Positions 190-42,170 of a stretch of 42,170 nucleotides of DNA are shown piece by piece; position 1 is the first letter of the stretch, and each line of letters begins with the position of its first letter. The notes under the pieces are model-generated. The model searched no databases. It saw nothing but the letters and a program-made list of their open reading frames with translations, and was not told the origin of the DNA. This stretch comes from a virus (taxonomy: Duplodnaviria > Caudoviricetes): IMG/VR virus record IMGVR_UViG_3300033420_000012, positions 1 through 42,170 of that record, one strand, 5' to 3'. The translations under genes were made by a program, and so were the position numbers.

Positions 190-620
190 TCCTTCCTTTG
201 TACGTCCATCGAGCAGTCTTTGATATGATTGTCTATTTTGTAGTACACGAGCAAAGGGACAAAACGTGATAGCTTCTTTTGTCTTCTGCTTTTGTGTTTC
301 GTCCATCGAGCATTCTTTTTATGTCTGGCTATGATGACGCCGACGAGTAAAGGTACAAAACGTGACAGCGTAAGGTATTCTTGTTTGATGCGACGGCTCC
401 GTCCGTCGTTCTCCCTTTCTTGCCGTGATGTAGTATCCTGACATGATACTGTTCTTCGTGATTTCGTAGTGTTGTCTTGATTGGTAGCTTCTTTGTTACG
501 CACATCGAGCAGTCTATATATCTCTGGCTATCTGTCGGTCCCGAGTAAAGGTGCATGACGTACTTGGCGTACTTCTTTTCTGTTGCTTTCTCGACGGCTC
601 CGTCCGTCGTTCTCCATTGA
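190..620. repeat. Degenerate ~100/200-nt repeat units
   Basis: CATCGAGCA at 207/304/503; CGAGYAAAGG at 248/344/542; identical 24-mer CGACGGCTCCGTCCGTCGTTCTCC at 391 and 592. Confidence 0.8.
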
Positions 621-1635
621 GGAATCCTTTACGGTGAACCTGTAGTAGCAAACAATCATGGGATTCGTAGTACGTGATTCACTGTGAGGGTGGGTGGTGG
701 GCTGACTGCGGATGCAGGCAGGTACTGCGTCCCTGCTGTGCGTGATTTCTGGTTGCGATGGAAGGTGAGATCGAGATGTCTTGTCTTGTGTTCATCTCGA
801 GATCTCCATCGCTAGCGTACGTGACAGGGACATACGTGTTGCATGACGATGCAATTCGTAGTGAATAGGTCTGCATACATAGCAGGTCTTGTCTTGTGTT
901 CCTGCTGTGTATGCAATCCGCTGGCTTGCATTGATAAGATTGTCTTGCAATCTGTCCTTCTTTGATTATACTTGGATTGTCTTTTAGTCGCACAACTCTG
1001 TTCGACCTGCGATCTTTTCTTTTCAAATGACCAATGGAATACTTGATAGTATTTATTCTATGGCTGTGTGTGTATCTCGATTCGTAGTGTTATGTATGTG
1101 TATAGTAATAGGTGTATCTGTGTGTGTATGATGATTCATTGGATAGCTGGTTGCTGTCTTGATTCTTTGGATAGTGTATGGTTGTCCAAACAATTAAAGA
1201 TTGTTTTGCTTTCTTCTGTTGGATCTTTCATGTGTTGCACATGACACGCTCTCTATTCTCCACGCACAGAACTGTACGTATGTGTGTGCATGATGTGTGT
1301 TAGCTGGCTTTCGTAGTATATATGTGTATGTTATATATAGGTATACATACATGTATCGTGCTGTGATTGTTTTATTGTAATTCTTTTGAATTAAATCTTG
1401 AAAAGATTTTTGATTTTGTTTTTTTGAAATTGTTTTTGATAAAACTTTTGGAAAAGTTTTTTTGTTTTGAATAAAATAAATAATTATTTGTTTGAACTTT
1501 GATTTGAATTGAATTTGTTTTGTGTATTTATTATTATATTATTGTTTACACATATATGAGGAGGGAGTGCAACCCCAATGAGTACACACATATATATATC
1601 TACCACCCCTCACACAATTTTTCCTCAAATCGCCA

Positions 1636-1706
1636 AGCCACATAGTGGCTTTCTCTTCCATGCCAGCCACTCGTGGCTCCTTCTCTACTCCAAGCCACTC
1701 GTGGCT
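1636..1706. promoter_or_regulatory. Three AGCCAC-N2/3-GTGGCT inverted repeats (candidate protein-binding sites)
   Basis: Palindromes at 1636-1650, 1665-1678, 1693-1706, spaced 28-29 bp, just upstream of the packaging operon. Confidence 0.55.
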
Positions 1707-1730
1707 TTCTCTTTAGTTGTCTCCTCTCCC

Positions 1731-2041: not shown

Positions 2042-3598
2042 ATGGGTGATATTTCTGTTGGTGATGATGGATTGGCCATGCTTGAGTTTGGCAAGAATAT
2101 GGCTGATAAGAATTGGAGGATGACGAGTGGGATGCTCTATAAGGTGAAGAATAAGAGCGGGGAGATTGTCCCTTTTATTCCTAATATGTTTCAGGCTTGG
2201 TATCTCAAGACGAAGCATAAAAGGAACTTGTTTTTGAAGGTGAGACAGGTCGGGGTGAGTACGGTTATTCAGTTGGATTATTTTGATGATATGGCTTTTA
2301 GTTGATTGAATTTGATGTGTGGTGTGATTACGCAGGATAGGGAGGCGACGCAAAGGTTGTTTGAGGATAAGATATTGTTGGCGTTTAATAATTTGCCGTC
2401 GTTTGTAAAGGAGCAGTTTACTGCGGATACGGATAATGCGAATCAGTTGACGTTGACGAATAGGATGACTGGGGCTACTGGAACGTTTAGGGTGGCGACG
2501 TCGTTTAGATCGGGTACGATCCAGAGGTTGCATGTATCGGAGTTGGGACCTATTGCCACGGCTGATCCTTTGAAGGCGAGAGAGATCAATAAGGGATCTA
2601 TCGAGGCTGTGGCTATTGATGGGATGGTGAGTGTCGAGAGTACGTCGTCTGGGGATAGTGGATTGTTTTATGATATGTGTGAGATGTATAGTAAGAAGGA
2701 CCCGAAGACGTTATCGCCTTTGGATTTCAAGTTTTACTTCTTTCCTTGGTATTTACAGAGTGAATATGAATATAGTGGGTTTGTCCATATTACGGATGAG
2801 TATGTGAAGTACTTTGCGGATTTAGAGAGGGATTGGGGTGTTGTTTTGTCTGATTCGAAGAAGAAGTGGTATGTCTTGAAGTCTGAGCAGAAGAAGCTGA
2901 CGGGGAAAAATGATATGTTTCAGGAGTACCCGAGTGTCTATAAGGAGGCGTTTTGGGCGAGCGTTGAGGGAGCGTATTTTGATCAGAAGTTTGATACGAT
3001 TATGGCACAGGGGAGGATTAGTAATGTGCCGTATGATCCCGCAGGGTTTGTGTATACGGTTTGGGATTTGGGTTGAGGTGGTTGAGGTGATGACACTGTT
3101 ATTTGGTGGTTTCAGGTATTCGGGAATGAGATAAGGTGGATAGATTATTGGGAGGGGAACGATCAGGATTTGCTCCAGACTATCAATTTCCAGGTTAAGA
3201 CGAAGCCATACAGATATGGGAGGCATATTGGGCCACATGATTTGATGGCACATCATGGGTATCAGCAGACAAGGTTTCAGCTGGCTAGGAGCAATGGGAT
3301 TGAGTTCTTTGTCGTTCCGCAAGTGGGGAAGTCGGAGACAATCCAGTTGGCGAAAAATATACTGTCGCAAAGTTGGTTTGATAAAAATAAAACTTTGACT
3401 TGATATTCCAGATTAAAAAGGTATAAGAAAAAATACGATAGGGGTTCTGGGAAGACATTGAACTTTCCTGATCATAATGAAGATAGCCATGCGTCCGATG
3501 CTTTTCAGTACGGTTCTTGGCGAGTTACACATGTTTTGGGTTTTAAGCCGAAGGCGTCGGTTGCTCCTGTGTCTTTTCTTGGTGCGAAGTATAAATAG
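2042..3598 (+). CDS. terL: Terminase large subunit (518 aa)
   Basis: LKVRQVGVST Walker A, LHVSE Walker B, ESTS motif III, WDLG and PDHNEDSHASDAFQY nuclease motifs; continuous when TGA=Gly. Confidence 0.95.
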
Positions 3599-8493: not shown

Positions 8494-9459
8494 ATGCCTA
8501 CTTACAATTGACTTAAAGCGAGTACGTCCACTTCTGCGGATGCTTTTACAGATTTCTTGAATAGGAAAGTTTTAGATAATTTTGAACCAAGCCTTGTGTT
8601 TAGTCAATTTTCTGAGACACCTATTTCTGATGCTGGTACTGATGAAGTTATTTGGGCAAAAATGCCTGCTTTCAATGCTTCTCCTGCACAGGTTGAGCTT
8701 CTTGATGGCGAAACGCCTCCTCCTATTTCCTACACTGTTGACACGATCAAGACTACTTCGAAAGAATATGGTCTTTACGCTGTCATCACGAAGAAAATGA
8801 ATAAGAAAGTTGCATTTAATCTTACGGAGAAAATTGCAATGAATCTTGGAGAGAACATGGCGAGAATTATCGACACTGTCTATCAAATGGAAGTTGTTGA
8901 TAACGCTACAAATAGAATCTATGCGTCAACGACCTCAGGTGGTACTAGAGCCGCTAATAGAGCCGCTATGACTGGTATTACTTACAAAATGTTTACGTAC
9001 GATATCGCAGCTGCTGTTACGACACTTCGTGCTCTTAATTCTCCAACCTTTATGGGTGGCCATTATGTCGGTATCCTCCATCCTTTGGTTGCTCACCGAA
9101 TTTCGACAGATGTTGGTACTGGTGGTCGGTTGGCTATCAAACAATATACTGTTGAAGGTCAAGGAAGCATCTATCGTGGTGAAATTGGTATGATCCACGG
9201 TGCGAGAATTATCGTGTCATCTAATATCAAAACATATGCGTCAACGACTACTGTTTATCCTTCTGTGTTCCTCGGAAAAGGTGCGTATGGTGGTACAACG
9301 TTAGAAGCTCTTCAAACTATCGTCAAGCCTTTTGGCTCAGGTGGTACAGAAGATCCTTTGAACCAAAGAATGACTGAAGCTGTTAGTGTTTCTTTTGCTT
9401 GCAAAATCTTACAACAGAACTCAATCGTTGTATTTGAATCTGCTGGTGCAACTCCATAA
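8494..9459 (+). CDS. Major capsid protein, N4-gp56-like (321 aa)
   Basis: YVGILHP, GEIGMIHGARII and GSGGTEDPLNQR motifs; position after scaffold. Confidence 0.9.
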
Positions 9460-28613: not shown

Positions 28614-29237
28614 ATGCTTCTCGATGAAAAACTTTTTGCTTTTGTAAAGCAAATGATGTCCTGATTGGACGTCGAACGTAACTTTTGATTTGTAAATATG
28701 ATCAATTGTACCCCCGAAGAAAAGATCTCGCGTCCTAAAGGAATTAAACGAAAACAGTCTTTTCTTTACTTTATATCTCAGTCTAATTGAACAACAAAGA
28801 TTGTTTGAACTGATGGTGATAAGTGATTTGAGCTATTTAGCCAAACCTTATGCAACTTTGATATTGGTATTGCCTTTGATAAAATTAAACATTTGTCTTG
28901 CGTTGCAGATATCCAAGAATCTTCTGTCTCTGATGCTTATATCGTTTTATCCCCTGACTCATACACAATCGTCGATGATGTTATTTCTGACACAATGGTC
29001 CCAGAGCGTATTGAGCAAATGTTTACAAAGTCTCTCGCTACTGAGAATCTATTTTGAGAAGCTGAGGAGGTTTTGTCTTCTGTTGCTAAATGGATGAAAG
29101 AATTTGATACTGCTGTTTTGAAACTTTGATATCTGCACAAAAAAGTTATTTCAAAAAACTATGTCACAGTTGAGTGAGAGTTTGATGATACAGAATTTAG
29201 AGCCATTGCAAAAAACTATGGCGTTTCGACTGATTAA
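28614..29237 (+). CDS. Hypothetical protein (207 aa)
   Basis: Open frame with TGA; pyrimidine leader; TAA stop. Confidence 0.7.
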
Positions 29238-29247
29238 ATCTTCTTCC

Positions 29248-30429
29248 ATGTACACTCTCCGCCCATATCAAGAAAATGCCGTGCAGGCTTGAATATCGTT
29301 TTTCAAACAAGATAAGATCAAGGGGGGGCTTTTGGTCCTCCCGACATGATCGGGAAAATCTTTGGTGATTGCTGGTATAGCAAAAGCCCTATCGTGAAAC
29401 ACGATTGTATTCCAGCCCTCAAAGGAAATCCTAGAACAAAACTATAAAAAGATCAAGTCGTATGGTATCGAGGATGTCTCTATATACTCGGCAAGTGTAG
29501 GGGAAAAAATAATCAGTAAGATCACCTTCGCCACTATTTGATCCGTAGTAAACAAACTAGACCAATTCGCACACTTTGACAATATCATTGTGGATGAGTG
29601 TCATGGAGTGAATGCCGAGGCGTGAATGTATCACAAATTTATCAAGGCAAGCAAGTGCAATGTGTTGTGACTTACTGCGACACCCTATCGTTTGATTTCC
29701 TTTTTGAAGGACGACAAAAATGTGTCGATGTTGAGATTTTTGACAAGATCACGTCCAAGGGTATTTGAAAAGGTTTTGCATGTGACGCAGGTGTCTGATC
29801 TTTATAAGCAAGGCTTTCTTGCGAAACTCCAATACTTCGATGTGGATTGTATCCGCCCGGGTGAACTCAAGATGAACTCATCAGGTGCTGACTTCGATGA
29901 TAAGGTCTTACAGATGTACATGGATGGTATTTGATATTGTGATCGTGTCGTGCAAGTCATAAAAAGATTGATGGTTATAGGTAGGAGAAAAGTTTTAGTG
30001 TTTACAAAGTTCGTTGCGGATTCTGAAAAGATACTTGAAATGCTAAAAAGTGAATATGTCCCTGCTTGTACTGTATCAGGAGAAACACCAAAAAAAGAAA
30101 GAGAGGGTATACTGGAGGAGTTTCAAGATATGGGTAGCGGTATGAATGTTGTAATCAATGTAGGTGTTTTGACTACTGGCTTTGATTTCCCTAAGCTCGA
30201 TACCGTGGTCATAGCTCGTCCTACGATGTCCTTGTGACTGTACTATCAAATGGTTGGTCGTGGCTTTCGTATCCATCCTAACAAAGAGAACTGTATGATC
30301 GTCGATATGGCTGGTAATCACAAGAAGTTTTGACCTGTCGAAGAATTGACTGTCCGAGATAGTGGCAATGAAAAATGGGTGATCCATAACAAGCGTGGCA
30401 AGATCCTGACAAACGTAATAATGTGATAG
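29248..30429 (+). CDS. Superfamily 2 DEAD/DEAH-like helicase (393 aa)
   Basis: LRPYQ, PTGSGKS, DECH, TATP, TGFD and QMVGRGFR motifs. Confidence 0.95.
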
Positions 30430-30453
30430 ATTTATCTTTTCAAATTTACTTTT

Positions 30454-31221
30454 ATGTTCCAAATACAACTCGATCCTGCATGGAGATCCATGCTATCTTC
30501 CTTATCAAAAGATGATAAATGTGATTTTTATGATTTACTTTTTGATTTATCTGATTATTTACAAGTTCCACGCTCTGAAACGTTTGTCTCACCTTTGTTA
30601 TCTAACCCCATATTGAAGGTTTGCTATGACACAATCTTACCACTGGTAACGCCACGTAGCCAGTCGTATCGACTGGTATGCGATAGGAACAAAAAAAACG
30701 TCATAGAGAGACATAGAAAAGAGAGGATTGAGATGCTAAAGCCAAAAAGTGAACGTTTACCAGTCGTACCAGTCGTAGCCAGTGGTAGCGGCGGAAAAAA
30801 AGACATATATAATACTTCTATATCTATAAGTAATAATGTATCTATATCTGCGAAAATTCTTTTTAGAAAAACTATAGTAGATTGTATTCATGGCGTAGAA
30901 AACTATCAACTACTTTTTACCCCATCTCTCCTTGACAGTTTTTATGATCATCGAACTGAGCCAGATAAAAAATGAAGGATGAGATATGAACTACAAAAAA
31001 CTTGGGATATAAAAAAAAGACTTTTTACTTGGCTAGAAAACAAAGTGACTAACTTTTGAAAAAACAATGTTGATTTTGGAAAACGGAAAGCCGAACAACT
31101 TGCTAAAAAGAAAATTGACGATAACGGTATGGATGCGTATGATCGTGCAATCAAACAATCTTTAACTTCTCCTACTCCTTCCCATGGCTTGAATTGAAAC
31201 AATACAACTTCCGCCACATAA
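30454..31221 (+). CDS. Replication initiator-like protein (255 aa)
   Basis: C-terminal FYDHWTEP..G.MRYELQKTWD...RL.TW; upstream of DnaB; internal short repeats. Confidence 0.75.
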
Positions 31222-32551
31222 TATCGACGCCGAAAAAGGCGTGCTTGGTGGTGCGATGATTGACCAAAATCTTTTGTTCTCATATGAATGACTTTTATTA
31301 TCCTATGCGGATTTTTACAAAAGAGATCATCAAATAATCTATAAAGCAATTTGTGCTGTACATAGTGAAAACAAGGTTGTTGACTCTGTCACTGTTGCCG
31401 AACAACTGGTCAAAATGTGAGAGATTGAAAACATCTGACAAGACTATTTGTTTGATCTGCAAACGCATCTTTTGACTACGTCGTCTTGTGGTGAGTATGC
31501 CCAAATCGTAAAAGAATGCTCTATCTACCGTCAAACTCTCAACAATTTGAGGAAATTATCTTGCTATTGTATGGAACAAAGACCACTCGAAGAGATACAA
31601 AGTTTTATGGAAAAGTCGTATACCGAGATGATTTGAACGAATAATGAGCTTGATTTCTGCGATGAAATACCTACATTTCAAGCCGAACTCTATGCTGAGA
31701 AAAGATCATCTTTGTCTTCTGGTTTTGGTCTGATTGATACCATGCTGACTGGTGGCGGCTTTAAGCGTGGACAATTAATTTGTGTTGCTGGGAGGCCATG
31801 AACTGGTAAGAGCTCGATCATGACGTGCCTTGCTATGGAACAGATTGAAAAGTACAAGGTCGCTATGTTTTCGTTAGAGATGGGCAAAATGGAAATTGCT
31901 TATAGGCTTGTGTCTTATAAAAGCCAAATATCATATCATATCATCGACACTGGTGTTTCTACTCGGGACGATTATCAAAAGGAAATCATCCCCCTTACTT
32001 TCGATCACATCAAAGAAACTTGACTAAAGATTTATGATAAAAAGTTTACTATCCAGGATATTAAAGGCACGATCAGAAAGTTGAAACTCACAAAAGGGCT
32101 TGATATCGTGTATATTGATTATTTGCAATTGATAAAGCAGGTTGATAGTAGGGAAATGAGGTCTGCGTTTATCGGTTCCGTGACTAGGGAATTGAAAAGA
32201 TTGGCAAAGGAAATGGATATTGTTGTTGTTATTGGCTCTCAATTAAATAGGGAGGTTGAGAAAAGGGTCGAGAATACACCCAAACTTTCCGATCTTCGTG
32301 AGAGTTGAGATATCGAACAGGATTGTGACATTGTGGTTTTTCTCTCAAACGAGGAAGAATGCAATGACCCGATCCAGCAAAAAAACGTTATTGTCGCCAA
32401 GCAAAGAAATGGCCCTAAGGGTTCTATCCCTATGAGTTTTGTTTGTAATACTATGACGTTACAAAATAAAAAGTTTGCATATCGTCCACCTGTGTCTGTT
32501 GTTGTATCTTGAAGAAGTCAGTCTATCGACAACTCGTGACGGTGAAAATAG
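31184..32551 (+). CDS. dnaB: Replicative DNA helicase (455 aa)
   Basis: PPHNIDAE, AGRPGTGKS, FSLEM, IDYLQL, SQLNR, DLRESGDIEQD and KQRNG motifs. Confidence 0.95.
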
Positions 32552-32580
32552 TCAGTTTTATTATTTTTCTTTTTTTTCTC

Positions 32581-33018
32581 ATGCTCCATGTTGTCACTTC
32601 TCCGCTCTTTGTTCGTACTGCTAAAAAAGAGACAGGGAAAAAATACCGGATAAACCTAAACAACTTCAACAAACGGAAAGGTTATGGATATAACAATATC
32701 AAGAAAGCATACTGTGATCAGATAGCTAAACAACTTGTCTGATTGAAAATTGACTGATCTCTTGAGATCTCGTACCAACTAATCCGCTATTACAAAGTTG
32801 GTAAGGGTAGGAAAGATAAATGAAATGTTTTGTCGGCGATCCAGAAGTTCTTTTTGGACTCTCTCGTCGAGTTGTGATACCTTCCCGACGATAATGATGA
32901 AATGATAGACAAAGAAATCTTTCCAAAACCCGCATATATTCAAGACAAGCTAAAGACTGCTGACGATAGTGTCGTCGTTATTACACTTACTACCAAAGAC
33001 GATATTCGACGTGTCTAA
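32581..33018 (+). CDS. RusA-like Holliday junction resolvase (145 aa)
   Basis: D.GN.....K...D.L...G...DDN catalytic pattern. Confidence 0.8.
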
Positions 33019-37974: not shown

Positions 37975-38001
37975 AGGAAAAGTAGGGGGAAAAAATAAAG
38001 G

Positions 38002-38313
38002 TTAGTCTCCGACGTACTGTGCAAGGTTTTCTCTTACCATGATAAGATGACCATGGTTCTCTTTTGCTATTCTTGCCTCTTCGATGTTAGCTGTCACCTG
38101 TGAGCTTTTGGACAAGATCCGCATTTCGCCCTCGATGTAGTATTTGCCGTTTTTGGTGTCCCAAAGTCGACCCCATCCATCATAAAGCTGGATTGGTTCG
38201 AGAAAAAGCCGTTGTTCTGCCCCTGATTTTGGGTTTTGGCTTTTTATATAAAATAATCCGTTGTTTTGTGCTTTTCTTAATTCTTCTTTGGTGCAAGTGA
38301 TTGTGCCTTTCAT
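38002..38313 (-). CDS. Hypothetical protein (103 aa)
   Basis: Track ORF with leader; TAA stop. Confidence 0.7.
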   Translation of the reverse strand: MKGTITCTKEELRKAQNNGLFYIKSQNPKSGAEQRLFLEPIQLYDGWGRLWDTKNGKYYIEGEMRILSKSSQVTANIEEARIAKENHGHLIMVRENLAQYVGD

Positions 38314-38684: not shown

Positions 38685-38712
38685 TGGAAAAGTGGGGGGA
38701 AAAAATAAAAAG

Positions 38713-38826
38713 TTATATCATCTTCTGTAATCTGTATCTATACTCCTTTATGTCTGATCTGCGTTTGTCTTCTCTCAATATGAGGAATGCCAACACTGGC
38801 ACCCCCAACAATAGAATCATAAACAT
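38713..38826 (-). CDS. Small membrane peptide (37 aa)
   Basis: Hydrophobic N-terminus; coupled TAATG with the upstream gene. Confidence 0.5.
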   Translation of the reverse strand: MFMILLLGVPVLAFLILREDKRRSDIKEYRYRLQKMI

Positions 38827-39343: not shown

Positions 39344-39439
39344 CTAATCTGATGTGTAAAGGTCGATCATGTCTGGGTCTCAATCTCTGAGATCATCGAC
39401 ACAAATCGCCTGTAGCTCTGTACGTAATAACTGCGACAT
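39344..39439 (-). CDS. Acidic peptide (31 aa), first ORF of the leftward operon
   Basis: Canonical pyrimidine leader, ATG, TAG stop. Confidence 0.45.
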
Positions 39440-39576
39440 GAAAAAGTGAAAGGAAAAAATAAAAGAAGCAAGCTGTCTGGATGGCGAGTGACTGGATGAC
39501 TAATGCACCCTATGGCGTGGGTCTCCCCCGAGTCGTCTAACTCGTCCGCCGTCTCTCTCTATCTGATGACCCCCAG

Positions 39577-39604
39577 ACTATAATCAAAAAAGTCTAAAAA
39601 TCAA
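39577..39604 (-). promoter_or_regulatory. Leftward early promoter
   Basis: TTGATT-N16-TATAGT on the - strand. Confidence 0.6.
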
Positions 39605-39624
39605 GGGAAAATGTCGAAAAAAGA

Positions 39625-39652
39625 TAGACAAAAGGTATCAATGTGATATAAT
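39625..39652 (+). promoter_or_regulatory. Rightward promoter
   Basis: TAGACA-N16-TATAAT. Confidence 0.5.
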
Positions 39653-39715
39653 ATGCAAACAATGAAACCGTAGGTCACAAGCCAAAAGAAAATGCAAAAA
39701 AAGTCCAATAATCCC

Positions 39716-39743
39716 TTGCAATCTCAAGAAAAATCAGTATATA
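39716..39743 (+). promoter_or_regulatory. Rightward promoter
   Basis: TTGCAA-N16-TATATA preceded by AAAAAAGTCCAA, as at 24.6 kb. Confidence 0.5.
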
Positions 39744-39787
39744 GATGATGAACAAAAAAACTCTCTATCTCCTAACCCTCTAACACC

Positions 39788-40042
39788 ATGTCACAATCTG
39801 AAACAATCAAAAACCTCCAAACACAAATCGAGCAAGTCAAGGGCTACCTCCCAAAGATCAACGCCGAACGTCGTCAGCTCCACATGTCAGTCAAAAACGG
39901 TACGACTGCCGATGAACTCCCAGTAAGATACTGGGAACTCACCAACATCAGAAAAAGAGGTGAGAGTATCATCGAAAGAAATACAAGACGAATCAAGGAA
40001 ATCATAAACAATAAAATGCAACCTATGGCACTCTGGGCGTAA
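39788..40042 (+). CDS. Helical hypothetical protein (84 aa)
   Basis: Track ORF downstream of promoters; TAA stop. Confidence 0.75.
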   Translation: MSQSETIKNLQTQIEQVKGYLPKINAERRQLHMSVKNGTTADELPVRYWELTNIRKRGESIIERNTRRIKEIINNKMQPMALWA

Positions 40043-40219
40043 TGGTCACGCTCCGCTCTGTCTCTCCTCGTCAGGCTGTCGGAATGGTAGCGACCAGCTA
40101 AAAACAAAAAAACGGGCGAATAGCCCGATGACCGCCTGTGCTGTGGTCTCTGTCTCTGACGGATGAGATATAAAAACGAGATAACAAATAAACTCACACC
40201 CCTAAACAGTTGTTAGAAT

Positions 40220-40355
40220 TACGGAATCCTGACCGCTGTCGTACCCCAAAACAATCTGAAAGTGGCTCGCCCCCCAACGTGATAGCTACGGAATCCTGAC
40301 CGCTGTCGTACGTTGAGACAATCTGAAAGTGGCTCGCCCCCCAACGTGATAGCTA
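40220..40355. repeat. Two 67-nt tandem units differing only in a 6-nt window
   Basis: TACGGAATCCTGACCGCTGTCGTAC-[CCCAAA/GTTGAG]-ACAATCTGAAAGTGGCTCGCCCCCCAACGTGATAGCTA. Confidence 0.95.
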
Positions 40356-40399
40356 AATTGGCTTTATACCTTGTTTTATTTCCTTACCTCTTATATTCT

Positions 40400-40441
40400 A
40401 TGGCAAAGAAAACAACCAAGAAAGGCTGAAAAAAATGCTAA
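40400..40441 (+). CDS. Basic micropeptide MAKKTTKKGGKKC (13 aa)
   Basis: Canonical pyrimidine leader, ATG GCA start, TAA stop. Confidence 0.45.
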
Positions 40442-40447
40442 TTGCTC

Positions 40448-40475
40448 TTGCAATTTGGGACTAAATCATTATAGT
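40448..40475 (+). promoter_or_regulatory. Promoter
   Basis: TTGCAA-N16-TATAGT. Confidence 0.6.
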
Positions 40476-40479
40476 CCTG

Positions 40480-40545
40480 TTGCGATCTGTTAGAGGGTTG
40501 CAAGCTGTTTTCCCTCCTCGTGCGTCTACATGGGAGGGTTTTCTT
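40480..40545 (+). ncRNA. Candidate ~65-nt small RNA
   Basis: Starts after the promoter; hairpin TTGCGATC/GGTTGCAA, then CCCTCC/GGAGGG hairpin plus T run. Confidence 0.4.
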
Positions 40546-40780
40546 ATTTTACGAGAAAATGTCTACGTTATGCCAAACTTGTATTTGATTCCGACATTGA
40601 TGTCCCCATGATAGGGAAAAGTGGGAGGAAAAAATAAACTGTATTCTCCCCAATGAGTGTAATGAGTGTCTTCGCCGTCTTCTGTTTTTTCTGCTATTTT
40701 GTTTTTTGTTTTTTTCTCGCCCGCACGGAGTGCGGGAGATCCCAGTCTGTGAGCCAGCTTTGAGGCTTGCCGAAAATGCC

Positions 40781-40808
40781 TTGATTTTATTGTAAAAGTT
40801 CGTATGAT
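40781..40808 (+). promoter_or_regulatory. Promoter upstream of terS
   Basis: TTGATT-N16-TATGAT. Confidence 0.6.
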
Positions 40809-40846
40809 AGATAAGGTGAGAATTTTATCCTTAAAAACCCCTTTTT

Positions 40847-41257
40847 ATGCCTATTTTAGAGAAGTCCCGAAGGGATGACCCTGTCAAATGTACGAGAGTG
40901 GAGAGCGTGCTCGCCCTCATCTCCAATGGGTATTGTGTAGGTGACGCCTTCATTAGAGCGAAGTTGCCGAAGACAACTATGAGGGGGCGAGTCGGTACGG
41001 AATATGAGGAATTGATTAAAGAGGCGGTTGCAAACCGAAGAATGCAGGTCAGCGACGTAGTTTCTGAGAAGATGAAAAAGGATTGATCCCTTGCTTTTAG
41101 AGTTCTCCAAAAGCTTGATAAGCGTTATTCCACCAAGAAAGAAGAGGCTCCCGAACAGAATCACCTAGTAAACATCTTTGTCAACTCTTATAGACAGACA
41201 ATGTGACTTGCTCCACTGCCAGAGGCAGGGATTATGGATTGAGATTTGGTGTCATAA
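40847..41257 (+). CDS. terS: Probable terminase small subunit (136 aa)
   Basis: HTH-like AF.RAKLPKTTMRGWV, then D..LAFRVLQKLD..Y; upstream of terL on the circle. Confidence 0.65.
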
Positions 41258-41345
41258 AAAGTCAAGCTTTGTATGGCGAAGCCAAAAAGGGAACTTTGCC
41301 CCAGCGTGCGGATGCACTCCTTTTTGGGCGGAGCCCACTTGACAA

Positions 41346-41372
41346 CCTCCCCAAAGGGAGGCTTTTTATTTC
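41346..41372 (+). terminator. Intrinsic terminator downstream of terS
   Basis: CCTCCC-CAAA-GGGAGG followed by CTTTTTATTT. Confidence 0.65.
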
Positions 41373-41374
41373 TT

Positions 41375-41936
41375 CCGAATTGGGCGAGCAACCGCATAGG
41401 ATAGCTAGAAAAAACGTGTCGATGCCCAGTATCTACACATTGTGGCACGATTTCCCATACGGCGTGCCCCCCGAAAGGCGAGGGGGGATACGACGCTCGT
41501 GCCTACGATGGATAGAAAACAGAAAATCCGCTGAAAAACATCTGCACGACGGTGCAGGTCATCATGAGATATCTCCTATCCATCCAAACTCATGGTCTGA
41601 CCTAAGGGGACGCTCGGAGGGATACCTTGCACAAGCCTCGTTGCCGACCCCTTGTGGGCTTGGGGGTGGTCGCCACCCCTTGGCAATGCGGACTTGTGCC
41701 AGAGAGAGGGAGTTTTGGCAGGTCTTGCCTTGTGTTCCTGCCAAAGGCGACCGAACGTGTAGACCTTCGATGCACTCGTCCCCTCCTGACTGTCCGAAAT
41801 GACGTGATTTAGGGTCTCGCTGGAGACTTCCGATGAAAAGTCAATGATGGCTTCTGACGATGCTTTGAGAAAAAATGCCCCGCGGGCGGAATGAATTGGG
41901 CTTTGCCTTCGCCCGCTTGACAATGCTTTGCATTGT
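41375..41936 (+). ncRNA. Candidate large structured RNA (~560 nt)
   Basis: GC-rich island with about 10 nested stems, a GAAA-capped hairpin and a possible pseudoknot; no ORF with the genome's leader. Confidence 0.5.
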
Positions 41937-42002
41937 TTCCTCGTATGTCTTTCTTCTTTTGGCTTCTCACCTTGCTTCCTTTTTTTTCCTCACCTCCCTC
42001 AC

Positions 42003-42170
42003 CTCGCATCCTCAGATGCACGCCTTTTTTTCCTTCCTCGGACTCACTCCTTCCTCGCATCCTCAGATGCACGCCTTTTTTTCCTTCCTCGGACTCACTC
42101 CTTCCTCGCATCCTCAGATGCACGCCTTTTTTTCCTTCCTCGGACTCACTCCTTCCTCGCATCCTCAGAT
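42003..42170. repeat. 51-bp tandem repeat, continuing into position 1
   Basis: Core at 42003, 42054, 42105, 42156. Confidence 0.95.

What the first reader, a model, noticed from the sequence alone, without database searches (positions are those of the whole stretch)
41375..41936. Candidate novel large structured ncRNA beside terS
Seen stems: 41379-85/41424-30; 41438-50/41497-510; AGGTCA..CATGAG/CTCATG..TGACCT (41556-41603), whose loop CTATCC can pair with GGATAG 41510-15 (pseudoknot); AGGGGACG/CGTCCCCT (41605/41777); GCACAAG..TTGCC/GGCAA..CTTGTGC; GGGGTGG/CCACCCC; GTCTC/GAGAC; GCGGGCGGA/TTCGCCCGC; ACAATGC/GCATTGT. The region is much more GC-rich than the genome. Known: phages carry large RNAs such as ROOL, GOLLD and pRNA, but I cannot assign this one to a family.
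Basis: partly seen in the sequence, partly recalled or inferred. Interest (0 to 1): 0.75.

Follow-up and report, generated by a model that had tools for sequence, protein, structure and literature searches.

The report
New large folded phage RNA
A phage that uses the recoded genetic code of Gracilibacteria-type bacteria carries about 640 bases of strongly folding sequence, shared with relatives in lakes and microbial mats and matching no catalogued RNA family; it is likely a new large non-coding RNA that likely works as a protein-binding, possibly self-assembling scaffold late in infection.

Summary
The window is a complete code-25 (TGA=Gly) phage. The flagged stretch is real and probably larger (about 41300-41940): fold z -4.75 for 562 nt, -5.77 for 641 nt, GC 54% against 39%, no Rfam match. 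Sixteen short contigs from 8 lake, mat and freshwater runs (7 studies) and one ENA-derived protein show relatives. Listed changes give four compensatory pairs in four helices and favour the + strand. Two first-reader features fail: the 41556-41603 stem and the 41510-15 pseudoknot are not kept. Its 14-nt U-rich loop recurs twice downstream on covarying stems. The 41203 frame is not conserved as protein (changes 15/17/15 over codon positions; a 30-residue frameshift) but stays open more often than expected. 'terS' is unverified: that ORF has no relatives. A related complete code-25 phage lacks the RNA. Best reading: a new family of ROOL/GOLLD-like ornate phage RNA (function inferred, 0.45); rival: cis-acting late-operon leader (0.25). 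Expression is untested. The scan earlier noted a similar-sized folded stretch in another code-25 phage (e1-8186071), with no sequence look-alike.

The parts
41300..41940 (+). candidate large structured ncRNA (ends inferred)
   Evidence: fold z -5.77; relatives' contigs laid over 41300-41972; P0123 spans about 41203-41650
41300..41347 (+). 5' element resembling 41878-41924; can pair with the 3' strand of that element and close the whole fold, or with 41527-48
   Evidence: 29 of 55 columns identical; MFE closes 5' on 3'; alternative 41305-14/41539-48
41346..41371 (+). intrinsic-terminator-like hairpin plus U tract; weak competing antiterminator strand at 41317-24
   Evidence: P(hairpin) 0.95-1.0 in all 10 prefixes tested; forced antiterminator -21.3 against -23.7 kcal/mol
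41438..41522 (+). dispensable peripheral domain (helices 41438-50/41497-510 and 41463-72/41482-92)
   Evidence: 85 nt replaced by 13 in X9 record 8; X5 record 2 leaves the window at the same point
41542..41557 (+). tetraloop hairpin; a second copy lies near 837-856
   Evidence: 41547/41552 change together in X8; second copy
41562..41596 (+). segment rich in self-complementary words (10-nt palindrome 41566-75; tetramer 41591-94) around the loop 41572-90; candidate intermolecular contact (inferred)
   Evidence: palindrome; 41567 change keeps it through G.U in 3 contigs; 41591-94 switches to another self-complementary tetramer in 4 contigs of 3 runs and by translation in P0123
41605..41784 (+). 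central multi-helix domain closed by 41605-12/41777-84
   Evidence: p 0.96; compensatory 41644/41683 (X5) and 41666/41676 (X2)
41706..41796 (+). most conserved core: purine-rich strand, hairpin 41714-22/41737-45 with 14-nt U-rich loop 41723-36, and following strand
   Evidence: identical in X4 over 91 nt; no listed change at 41727-72 in the 7 contigs that cover all or part of it, some rows hidden
41882..41940 (+). 3' hairpin 41882-90/41908-16, then hairpin 41919-37 and a U-rich tail (likely 3' end)
   Evidence: last hairpin weakened in X7
42002..42170 (+). tandem repeats (51 nt, then 38 nt) continuing at 1-197 across the circular join; six copies of a 5-bp hairpin plus U tract are flagged, one of them counted twice because of the 94-nt overlap
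196..570 (+). three copies of a second motif of about 75 nt; follows the RNA directly in relative X7
   Evidence: loose end after 41971 in X7; no convincing consensus fold
640..960 (+). second folded domain with two more copies of the 14-nt loop (779-792, 887-900) and a copy of the tetraloop hairpin
   Evidence: z -4.46; 3 copies against 0.07 expected; 11 of 14 pairs change on both sides
41203..41802 (+). overlapping open frame (199 aa in code 11; 381 codons to position 272 in code 25); not conserved as protein
2042..3598 (+). terminase large subunit, first gene of the head module
   Evidence: phrog_2, E 3.9e-17

Best explanation
The stretch 41300-41940 folds far better than shuffled sequence and is conserved with compensatory base changes in related phages; it is likely a + strand non-coding RNA of a new family that likely acts, like ROOL and GOLLD, as a multi-helix scaffold late in infection, displaying repeated U-rich loops that would bind a host or phage protein and a self-complementary segment that would let copies associate. 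Shown: the fold statistics, the relatives, the paired changes, the modular build (conserved core, removable 85-nt domain, variable 41811-41915), and three copies of the 14-nt loop on unrelated stems. Inferred: transcription from + strand promoter-like sites at 40448 or 40781 by read-through of the 41346 terminator, or from an unrecognised promoter; a 3' end at the hairpin and U tail near 41940; late timing, from its position ahead of the head genes; protein binding by the loops. A guess at the partner: this phage's gene leaders are U-rich (T fraction 0.4 or more before 15 of 17 gene starts checked), so the U-rich loops might bind whatever host factor reads such leaders. Oligomerisation is inferred from one tetramer switch.
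For: Fold z -4.75/-5.77 and best of 18 genome windows. 16 contigs from 8 runs of 7 studies at about 84-98% identity plus P0123. Among the listed changes, read by hand against the and folds: 4 compensatory pairs in 4 helices (41547/41552 X8; 41644/41683 X5; 41666/41676 X2; 41791/41804 X7, with X6 the same variant where listed). 4 one-sided changes keep a pair as or from G.U on the + strand (41438, 41681 in X2, 41773, 41811), and 2 add a pair (41700, 41800). The loop copies show 11 of 14 pairs changed on both sides, 0 of 500 shuffles as high (only 3 paralogous rows). Size is like ROOL, 581 nt on average (PMC5737381, passages). A palindrome-to-palindrome tetramer switch marks symmetric kissing loops in OLE and GOLLD (PMC12286853, passages). 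The RNA is dispensable for the head module: the complete code-25 phage G003 (capsid 61%, terL 45% identical) has no match and no GC-rich gap.
Against: No expression data. Several predicted helices are not kept: 41556-68/41589-603 is broken in X8 and P0123, and probably in X5 record 1; 41716 makes a C.A pair, which would be G.U on the minus strand; 41681 breaks a terminal pair in X5; 41785-89/41809-13 is remodelled in X6 and X7; the last hairpin is weakened in X7. For 4 changes the partner lies too near a contig end to see. The tables hide 15 and 29 rows, and the relatives are short, close fragments, so no full alignment or covariance model of the RNA could be built. No tRNA genes nearby, unlike ROOL and GOLLD. 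The tetramer switch is a single event. The element encloses a strong terminator hairpin and lies ahead of the head genes, which suits a cis role. The overlapping frame is open for 381 codons (chance about 0.03 for one frame, 0.08 for any of three; 0.006 against local base shuffles).
Confidence: 0.45

Rival explanations
1. A cis-acting leader of the late (head) operon: an attenuator or RNA-based processive antiterminator, working like HK022 put, that lets polymerase pass the 41346 terminator and the array of hairpin-plus-U-tract repeats on the way to terL.
For: Position at the head of a 2.8-kb gene-poor zone before terL. Terminator-like sites are enriched: 15 against 2.9 expected in 39500-42170 and 8 against 1.8 in 1-2100. 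An antiterminator strand exists within 2.4 kcal/mol. The 5' element has alternative partners. The terminator region is conserved in X9 and P0123. Repeated loops would suit a nut/put-like site. put acts as RNA alone on the elongation complex (PMC9378689, abstract).
Against: The terminator hairpin dominates in all 10 prefixes folded (P 0.95-1.0), and most of the RNA lies downstream of it. Promoter-like sites at 945, 1448 and 1509 could drive terL without read-through, though 4 sites is what chance gives. G003 expresses a related head module with no such leader. 640 nt with an invariant core is more than a simple attenuator needs (inference).
Confidence: 0.25
2. Dual function: the overlapping frame is translated (as a C-terminal extension of the 40847 ORF or from GTG 41203), and ribosome passage, not the peptide, controls the terminator or the fold.
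For: The frame is open for 381 codons. In P0123 the 40847 C-terminal frame joins this frame. Net indels keep the frame in X5 record 1, P0123, the 72-nt deletion variant and X5 record 4.
Against: Changes fall 15/17/15 on codon positions 1/2/3 (47 listed sites). About 30 residues are read in another frame in P0123. X5 record 2's loose end puts a TAG in frame. X6 and X7 record 4 have net +1, X7 record 5 +1, and X9 record 9 -1. Codon log-odds -0.09, below the 11 other ORFs scored (-0.01 to +0.36). No family. No U-rich leader before the GTG.
Confidence: 0.12
3. A DNA-level element: packaging (pac) or replication site whose repeated hairpins and loops are recognised as cruciform or single-stranded DNA.
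For: Lies between the putative small and the large terminase genes. Repeated short motifs and tandem repeats. Folds as DNA with z -3.88.
Against: One-sided changes keep G.U pairs on one strand (4 on + against 1 on -). The multi-junction, 170-nt-span helices and a removable domain are typical of RNA (inference). G003 packages with a related terL and lacks it.
Confidence: 0.1
4. A pRNA-like component of the packaging motor.
For: Next to the terminase region; possible self-association; the small terminase is not verified here. phi29 pRNA binds the portal vertex (PMC5850374, passage).
Against: terL is of the ordinary phrog_2 type. G003, with a 45% identical terL and an adjacent upstream gene, lacks the RNA. 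No Rfam pRNA match.
Confidence: 0.04
5. A self-splicing intron or ribozyme (group I or II, RNase P-like, small self-cleaver), or its remnant.
For: Size, a near-invariant core and variable peripheral domains.
Against: No Rfam match at gathering level or E up to 10. It interrupts no gene: terL aligns from about residue 20 to its relatives. No maturase, reverse transcriptase or homing-endonuclease family among the 37 ORFs scanned.
Confidence: 0.04

Closest known systems
ROOL RNA (Weinberg 2017, PMC5737381; Kretsch 2025, PMC12286853)
   Same: About 600 nt, multi-junction, phage-encoded, variable linker or peripheral parts, no protein partner gene beside it.
   Different: No match to the Rfam 15 library; no tRNA genes in this genome; ROOL's six junctions, three pseudoknots and nanocage were not shown here; code-25 host group.
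GOLLD RNA
   Same: Large phage RNA found in lake samples; one part better conserved than another; symmetric kissing loops marked by palindrome switches.
   Different: Shorter (about 640 against more than 800 nt for many GOLLDs); no Rfam match; no tRNA island; three copies of one loop spread over 1.7 kb.
HK022 put RNA and other cis antiterminator leaders
   Same: Structured phage RNA ahead of an operon, near terminators.
   Different: Far larger (put's small size is recalled, not checked); no sequence match; read-through untested.
phi29 pRNA
   Same: Structured phage RNA near packaging genes, possibly oligomeric.
   Different: Ordinary terminase; absent from a related phage; no Rfam match.

Membership tests
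ROOL | match to the ROOL covariance model | tested here: not met
   no match at gathering level or E up to 10 against all 4227 Rfam 15 families; that ROOL and GOLLD are in Rfam is stated in 10.1101/2024.12.08.627333 (passage)
ROOL | about 580 nt, several multistem junctions | tested here: met
   560-640 nt, multi-junction MFE
ROOL | three conserved pseudoknots | tested here: inconclusive
   the proposed pseudoknot is not conserved; an alternative 41399-404/41576-81 is kept and gains a pair in P0123 by inference from its translation
ROOL/GOLLD | often next to tRNA genes | tested here: not met
   0 tRNA or tmRNA genes in the window
ROOL/GOLLD | homo-oligomeric RNA cage; high abundance in infection | not testable with these tools
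   no RNA run listed; no structure tool for RNA oligomers used
GOLLD | match to the GOLLD model (conserved 3' half) | tested here: not met
phi29 pRNA | match to the pRNA model; phi29-type motor | tested here: not met
group I/II intron | catalytic core match and an interrupted gene | tested here: not met
tmRNA | tRNA-like domain and tag frame | tested here: not met
   ARAGORN found none; no Rfam match
transcription attenuator / put-like antiterminator | terminator with a mutually exclusive antiterminator | tested here: inconclusive
   overlapping antiterminator strand exists but has P of 0.045 or less
transcription attenuator / put-like antiterminator | read-through of downstream terminators in cis | not testable with these tools
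   needs in vitro transcription

The most novel reading that the evidence does not exclude
A new class of large, modular, self-associating phage RNA of code-25 Patescibacteria phages: the first domain of a non-coding transcript of up to 1.7 kb that displays the same U-rich loop three times as a multivalent decoy or scaffold for the host factor that starts translation on U-rich leaders, shifting the host's translation to phage late genes.
Probability: 0.15. Interest if true: 0.85.

Novelty: new variant of a known kind. Interest (0 to 1): 0.6.

Why it matters
Only a few classes of large ornate bacterial or phage RNAs are described (OLE, ROOL, GOLLD; PMC12286853), and two of them turned out to build RNA-only cages of unknown use. 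A further unrelated family, in a phage of a reduced-genome, recoded host, would give an independent test of whether large phage RNAs converge on oligomers or on regulation. It can be made in vitro for probing, cryo-EM and pull-downs without culturing host or phage. The repeated covarying loop and the natural deletion variant are ready handles for such tests.

Tried and rejected
Full-length relatives were not found. Doubled hits in L417, L419 and L421 are coding repeats. terL and the 40847 ORF found no viral contigs as single proteins. The terL alignment gave 80 loci, of which 1 (L307 = G003) reads in code 25 and none holds the RNA. blastn of phage and plasmid records: nothing beyond E 0.06. 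0 of 401 phylum-level and 0 of 401 class-level Patescibacteria genomes matched the DNA, and 0 of 151 matched the loop model; I could not identify a code-25 host among them, so these blanks say little. No RNA holder was listed, which is no evidence either way. In one search no contig covered 40800-41624; a gap in cover proves nothing, so I do not claim that the RNA is better conserved than the ORF before it. Runs were found by shared 31-mers, which biases them towards holding some identical stretch. The three-copy motif at 196-570 gave no supported consensus fold and no Rfam match. The single-sequence model of the 40847 ORF was too poor for a fold search, and the ORF matched none of 6702 ORFs from the 80 terL loci. 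An ESM Atlas look-up of that ORF is missing, so remote look-alikes remain unchecked. Literature: searches showed no paper on this RNA by title or abstract start. A core 17-mer was absent from 6 searched supplementary files of PMC10690425, but files 1, 2 and 4 could not be searched and may hold it; bioRxiv supplements were closed.

Full report
Genome context. The window is a whole phage genome with a 94-nt terminal overlap. ORFs of 150 codons or more cover 28% under code 11 and 88% with TGA read as sense, so it uses code 25; that this points to a Gracilibacteria or Absconditabacteria host is established knowledge (PMC10746230 seen as a search listing), not tested here. terL is at 2042-3598, the major head protein at 8494-9459, and helicases and a resolvase at 28801-33018. 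The flagged stretch opens a gene-poor zone of about 2.8 kb that runs across the join from the 136-aa ORF 40847-41257 to terL. That ORF is an orphan (model pLDDT 42), so 'terS' is a guess from position. The join lies inside a tandem repeat, but relative X7 also places the motif found at about 200 directly after the RNA, which supports the adjacency.

Observation. The 562-nt stretch folds at z -4.75 on + and -3.99 on -, and 41300-41940 at z -5.77. It was the best of 18 equal windows; the second best, 601-1162, is in the same zone. GC is 54% against 39%. Rfam has no match and ARAGORN finds no tRNA or tmRNA.

Relatives. The run index listed 9 holders, one probably the source. Laying the other 8 (7 studies; mats, lakes, fresh water, one organism-labelled run) gave 16 contigs of 151-390 nt, all within 41300-41972: 1 at 95-99% identity, 8 at 90-95% and 7 below 90%. 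A protein search with the overlapping frame returned the window's own and one more, P0123, from a 747-nt ENA contig, 67% identical over 139 residues. A 78% identical terL fragment shows that kindred phages exist. None of these DNAs could be fetched whole, so the analysis rests on difference tables that show 40 rows each (15 and 29 hidden) and omit changes near contig ends; pairs were read by hand. No full-length relative was found in viral, metagenome, genome, phage or plasmid collections (see Tried and rejected).

What the changes say. For structure: four double changes keep a pair in four helices (41547/41552, 41644/41683, 41666/41676, 41791/41804); four single changes keep a pair as or from G.U on the + strand (41438, 41681 in X2, 41773, 41811); two add a pair (41700, 41800); many others fall in loops and linkers. 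X4 is identical over 41706-41796. Whole modules vary: 41438-41522 is replaced by 13 nt in X9 record 8, X5 record 2 departs at the same point, 41811-41915 is replaced by 117 nt in X5 record 4, and 41647-41680 is remodelled in X5 record 1. Against: the stem 41556-68/41589-603 is broken in X8 and P0123 and probably in X5 record 1; the 41507-15 strand of the proposed pseudoknot is mutated (X5 record 1, P0123) or deleted; 41716 gives C.A; 41681 breaks a pair in X5; the outer stem at 41785-41813 is remodelled in X6 and X7; the final hairpin is weakened in X7; four changes have unseen partners. The loop at 41572-90 shows no listed change; its best-kept partner is 41399-41404, where P0123's translation implies one added pair. 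The tetramer 41591-94 is self-complementary in the window and switches at all four positions to another self-complementary tetramer in four contigs and in P0123. The 10-nt palindrome 41566-75 survives its one listed change through G.U. In OLE and GOLLD such switches mark symmetric intermolecular kissing loops (PMC12286853, passages). Here it is one event, with about 1 in 9 chance given four changes (my estimate), so it is a lead only.

Internal repeats. The 14-nt loop at 41723-36 recurs at 779-792 and 887-900 (3 matches against 0.07 expected) on stems of different sequence: 11 of 14 pairs change on both sides. The tetraloop hairpin at 41542-57 recurs near 841. This shows selection for a hairpin that presents a fixed loop, and ties the domain at 640-960 (z -4.46) to the flagged RNA. 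The 5' element 41300-47 resembles 41878-924, and the two can close the fold.

The overlapping frame. It has no family. Listed changes fall 15/17/15 on the codon positions (47 of 70 listed sites lie in it), P0123 reads about 30 residues in another frame, and one X5 contig has an in-frame TAG. The protein sequence is therefore not conserved. Yet the frame is stop-free for 381 codons, four of eight indel-bearing variants keep it, and in P0123 it is continuous with the C-terminal frame of the 40847 ORF. Translation as a regulatory act is not excluded.

Mechanism. Best reading (0.45): a trans-acting ornate RNA made late, a scaffold or decoy that presents U-rich loops and may self-associate. Its absence from G003, a complete code-25 phage with a related head module, makes it accessory and argues against a packaging RNA. 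Main rival (0.25): a cis leader that controls passage through the 41346 terminator and the downstream hairpin-and-U repeats; put is the precedent (PMC9378689, abstract). Then a translated leader (0.12), a DNA site (0.10), pRNA-like (0.04) and ribozyme or intron (0.04). I put the probability that it is a functional structured RNA at all at about 0.85.

Comparison and novelty. It works most like ROOL and GOLLD in size, build and phage context (PMC5737381, passages; 10.1101/2024.12.08.627333, passages) but fails membership: no model match and no tRNA neighbourhood. It is a new family within a known kind. The literature searches listed under Tried and rejected showed no description, and three supplementary files of PMC10690425 could not be searched. 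An earlier scan note (e1-8186071) reports about 550 folded non-coding bases with a switch-like start in another code-25 phage; the sequence look-ups found no look-alike, and I did not test that note. Interest 0.6: real and conserved, easy to test in vitro, but expression, full alignment and function are all missing.

Noticed in passing
window 40220-40355: Two 67-nt tandem copies (92%) whose last 11 nt recur at the ends of two of the three motif copies at 263 and 359.
   Followed up: partly
window 196-570: Three copies of a motif with two invariant blocks; copies 2 and 3 share a further block to about 417 and 618; conserved in relative X7; no Rfam match, no relatives among 18 pattern hits in viral contigs.
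   Followed up: partly
window 1633-1713: About three 28-nt repeats, each with a small hairpin, 330 nt before terL; local fold z down to -5.7 on the minus strand.
   Followed up: no
window 41339-41344 and 41917-41922: A perfect -35-like hexamer ends both related flanking elements; in X7 the listed changes put TA 17 nt after the second one, as in a sigma-70 promoter (inference).
   Followed up: no
window gene starts: Leaders are pyrimidine-rich; T fraction 0.4 or more before 15 of 17 starts checked.
   Followed up: partly
window 37976-38010, 38686-38720, 39435-39463, 40615-40649: A repeated 29-35 nt purine-rich motif near the minus-strand early genes (families D11 and D17); possibly leaders read on the minus strand.
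   Followed up: no
L307 (G003): A complete code-25 phage with a related head module and a gene directly before terL; useful as an RNA-less comparator.
   Followed up: yes
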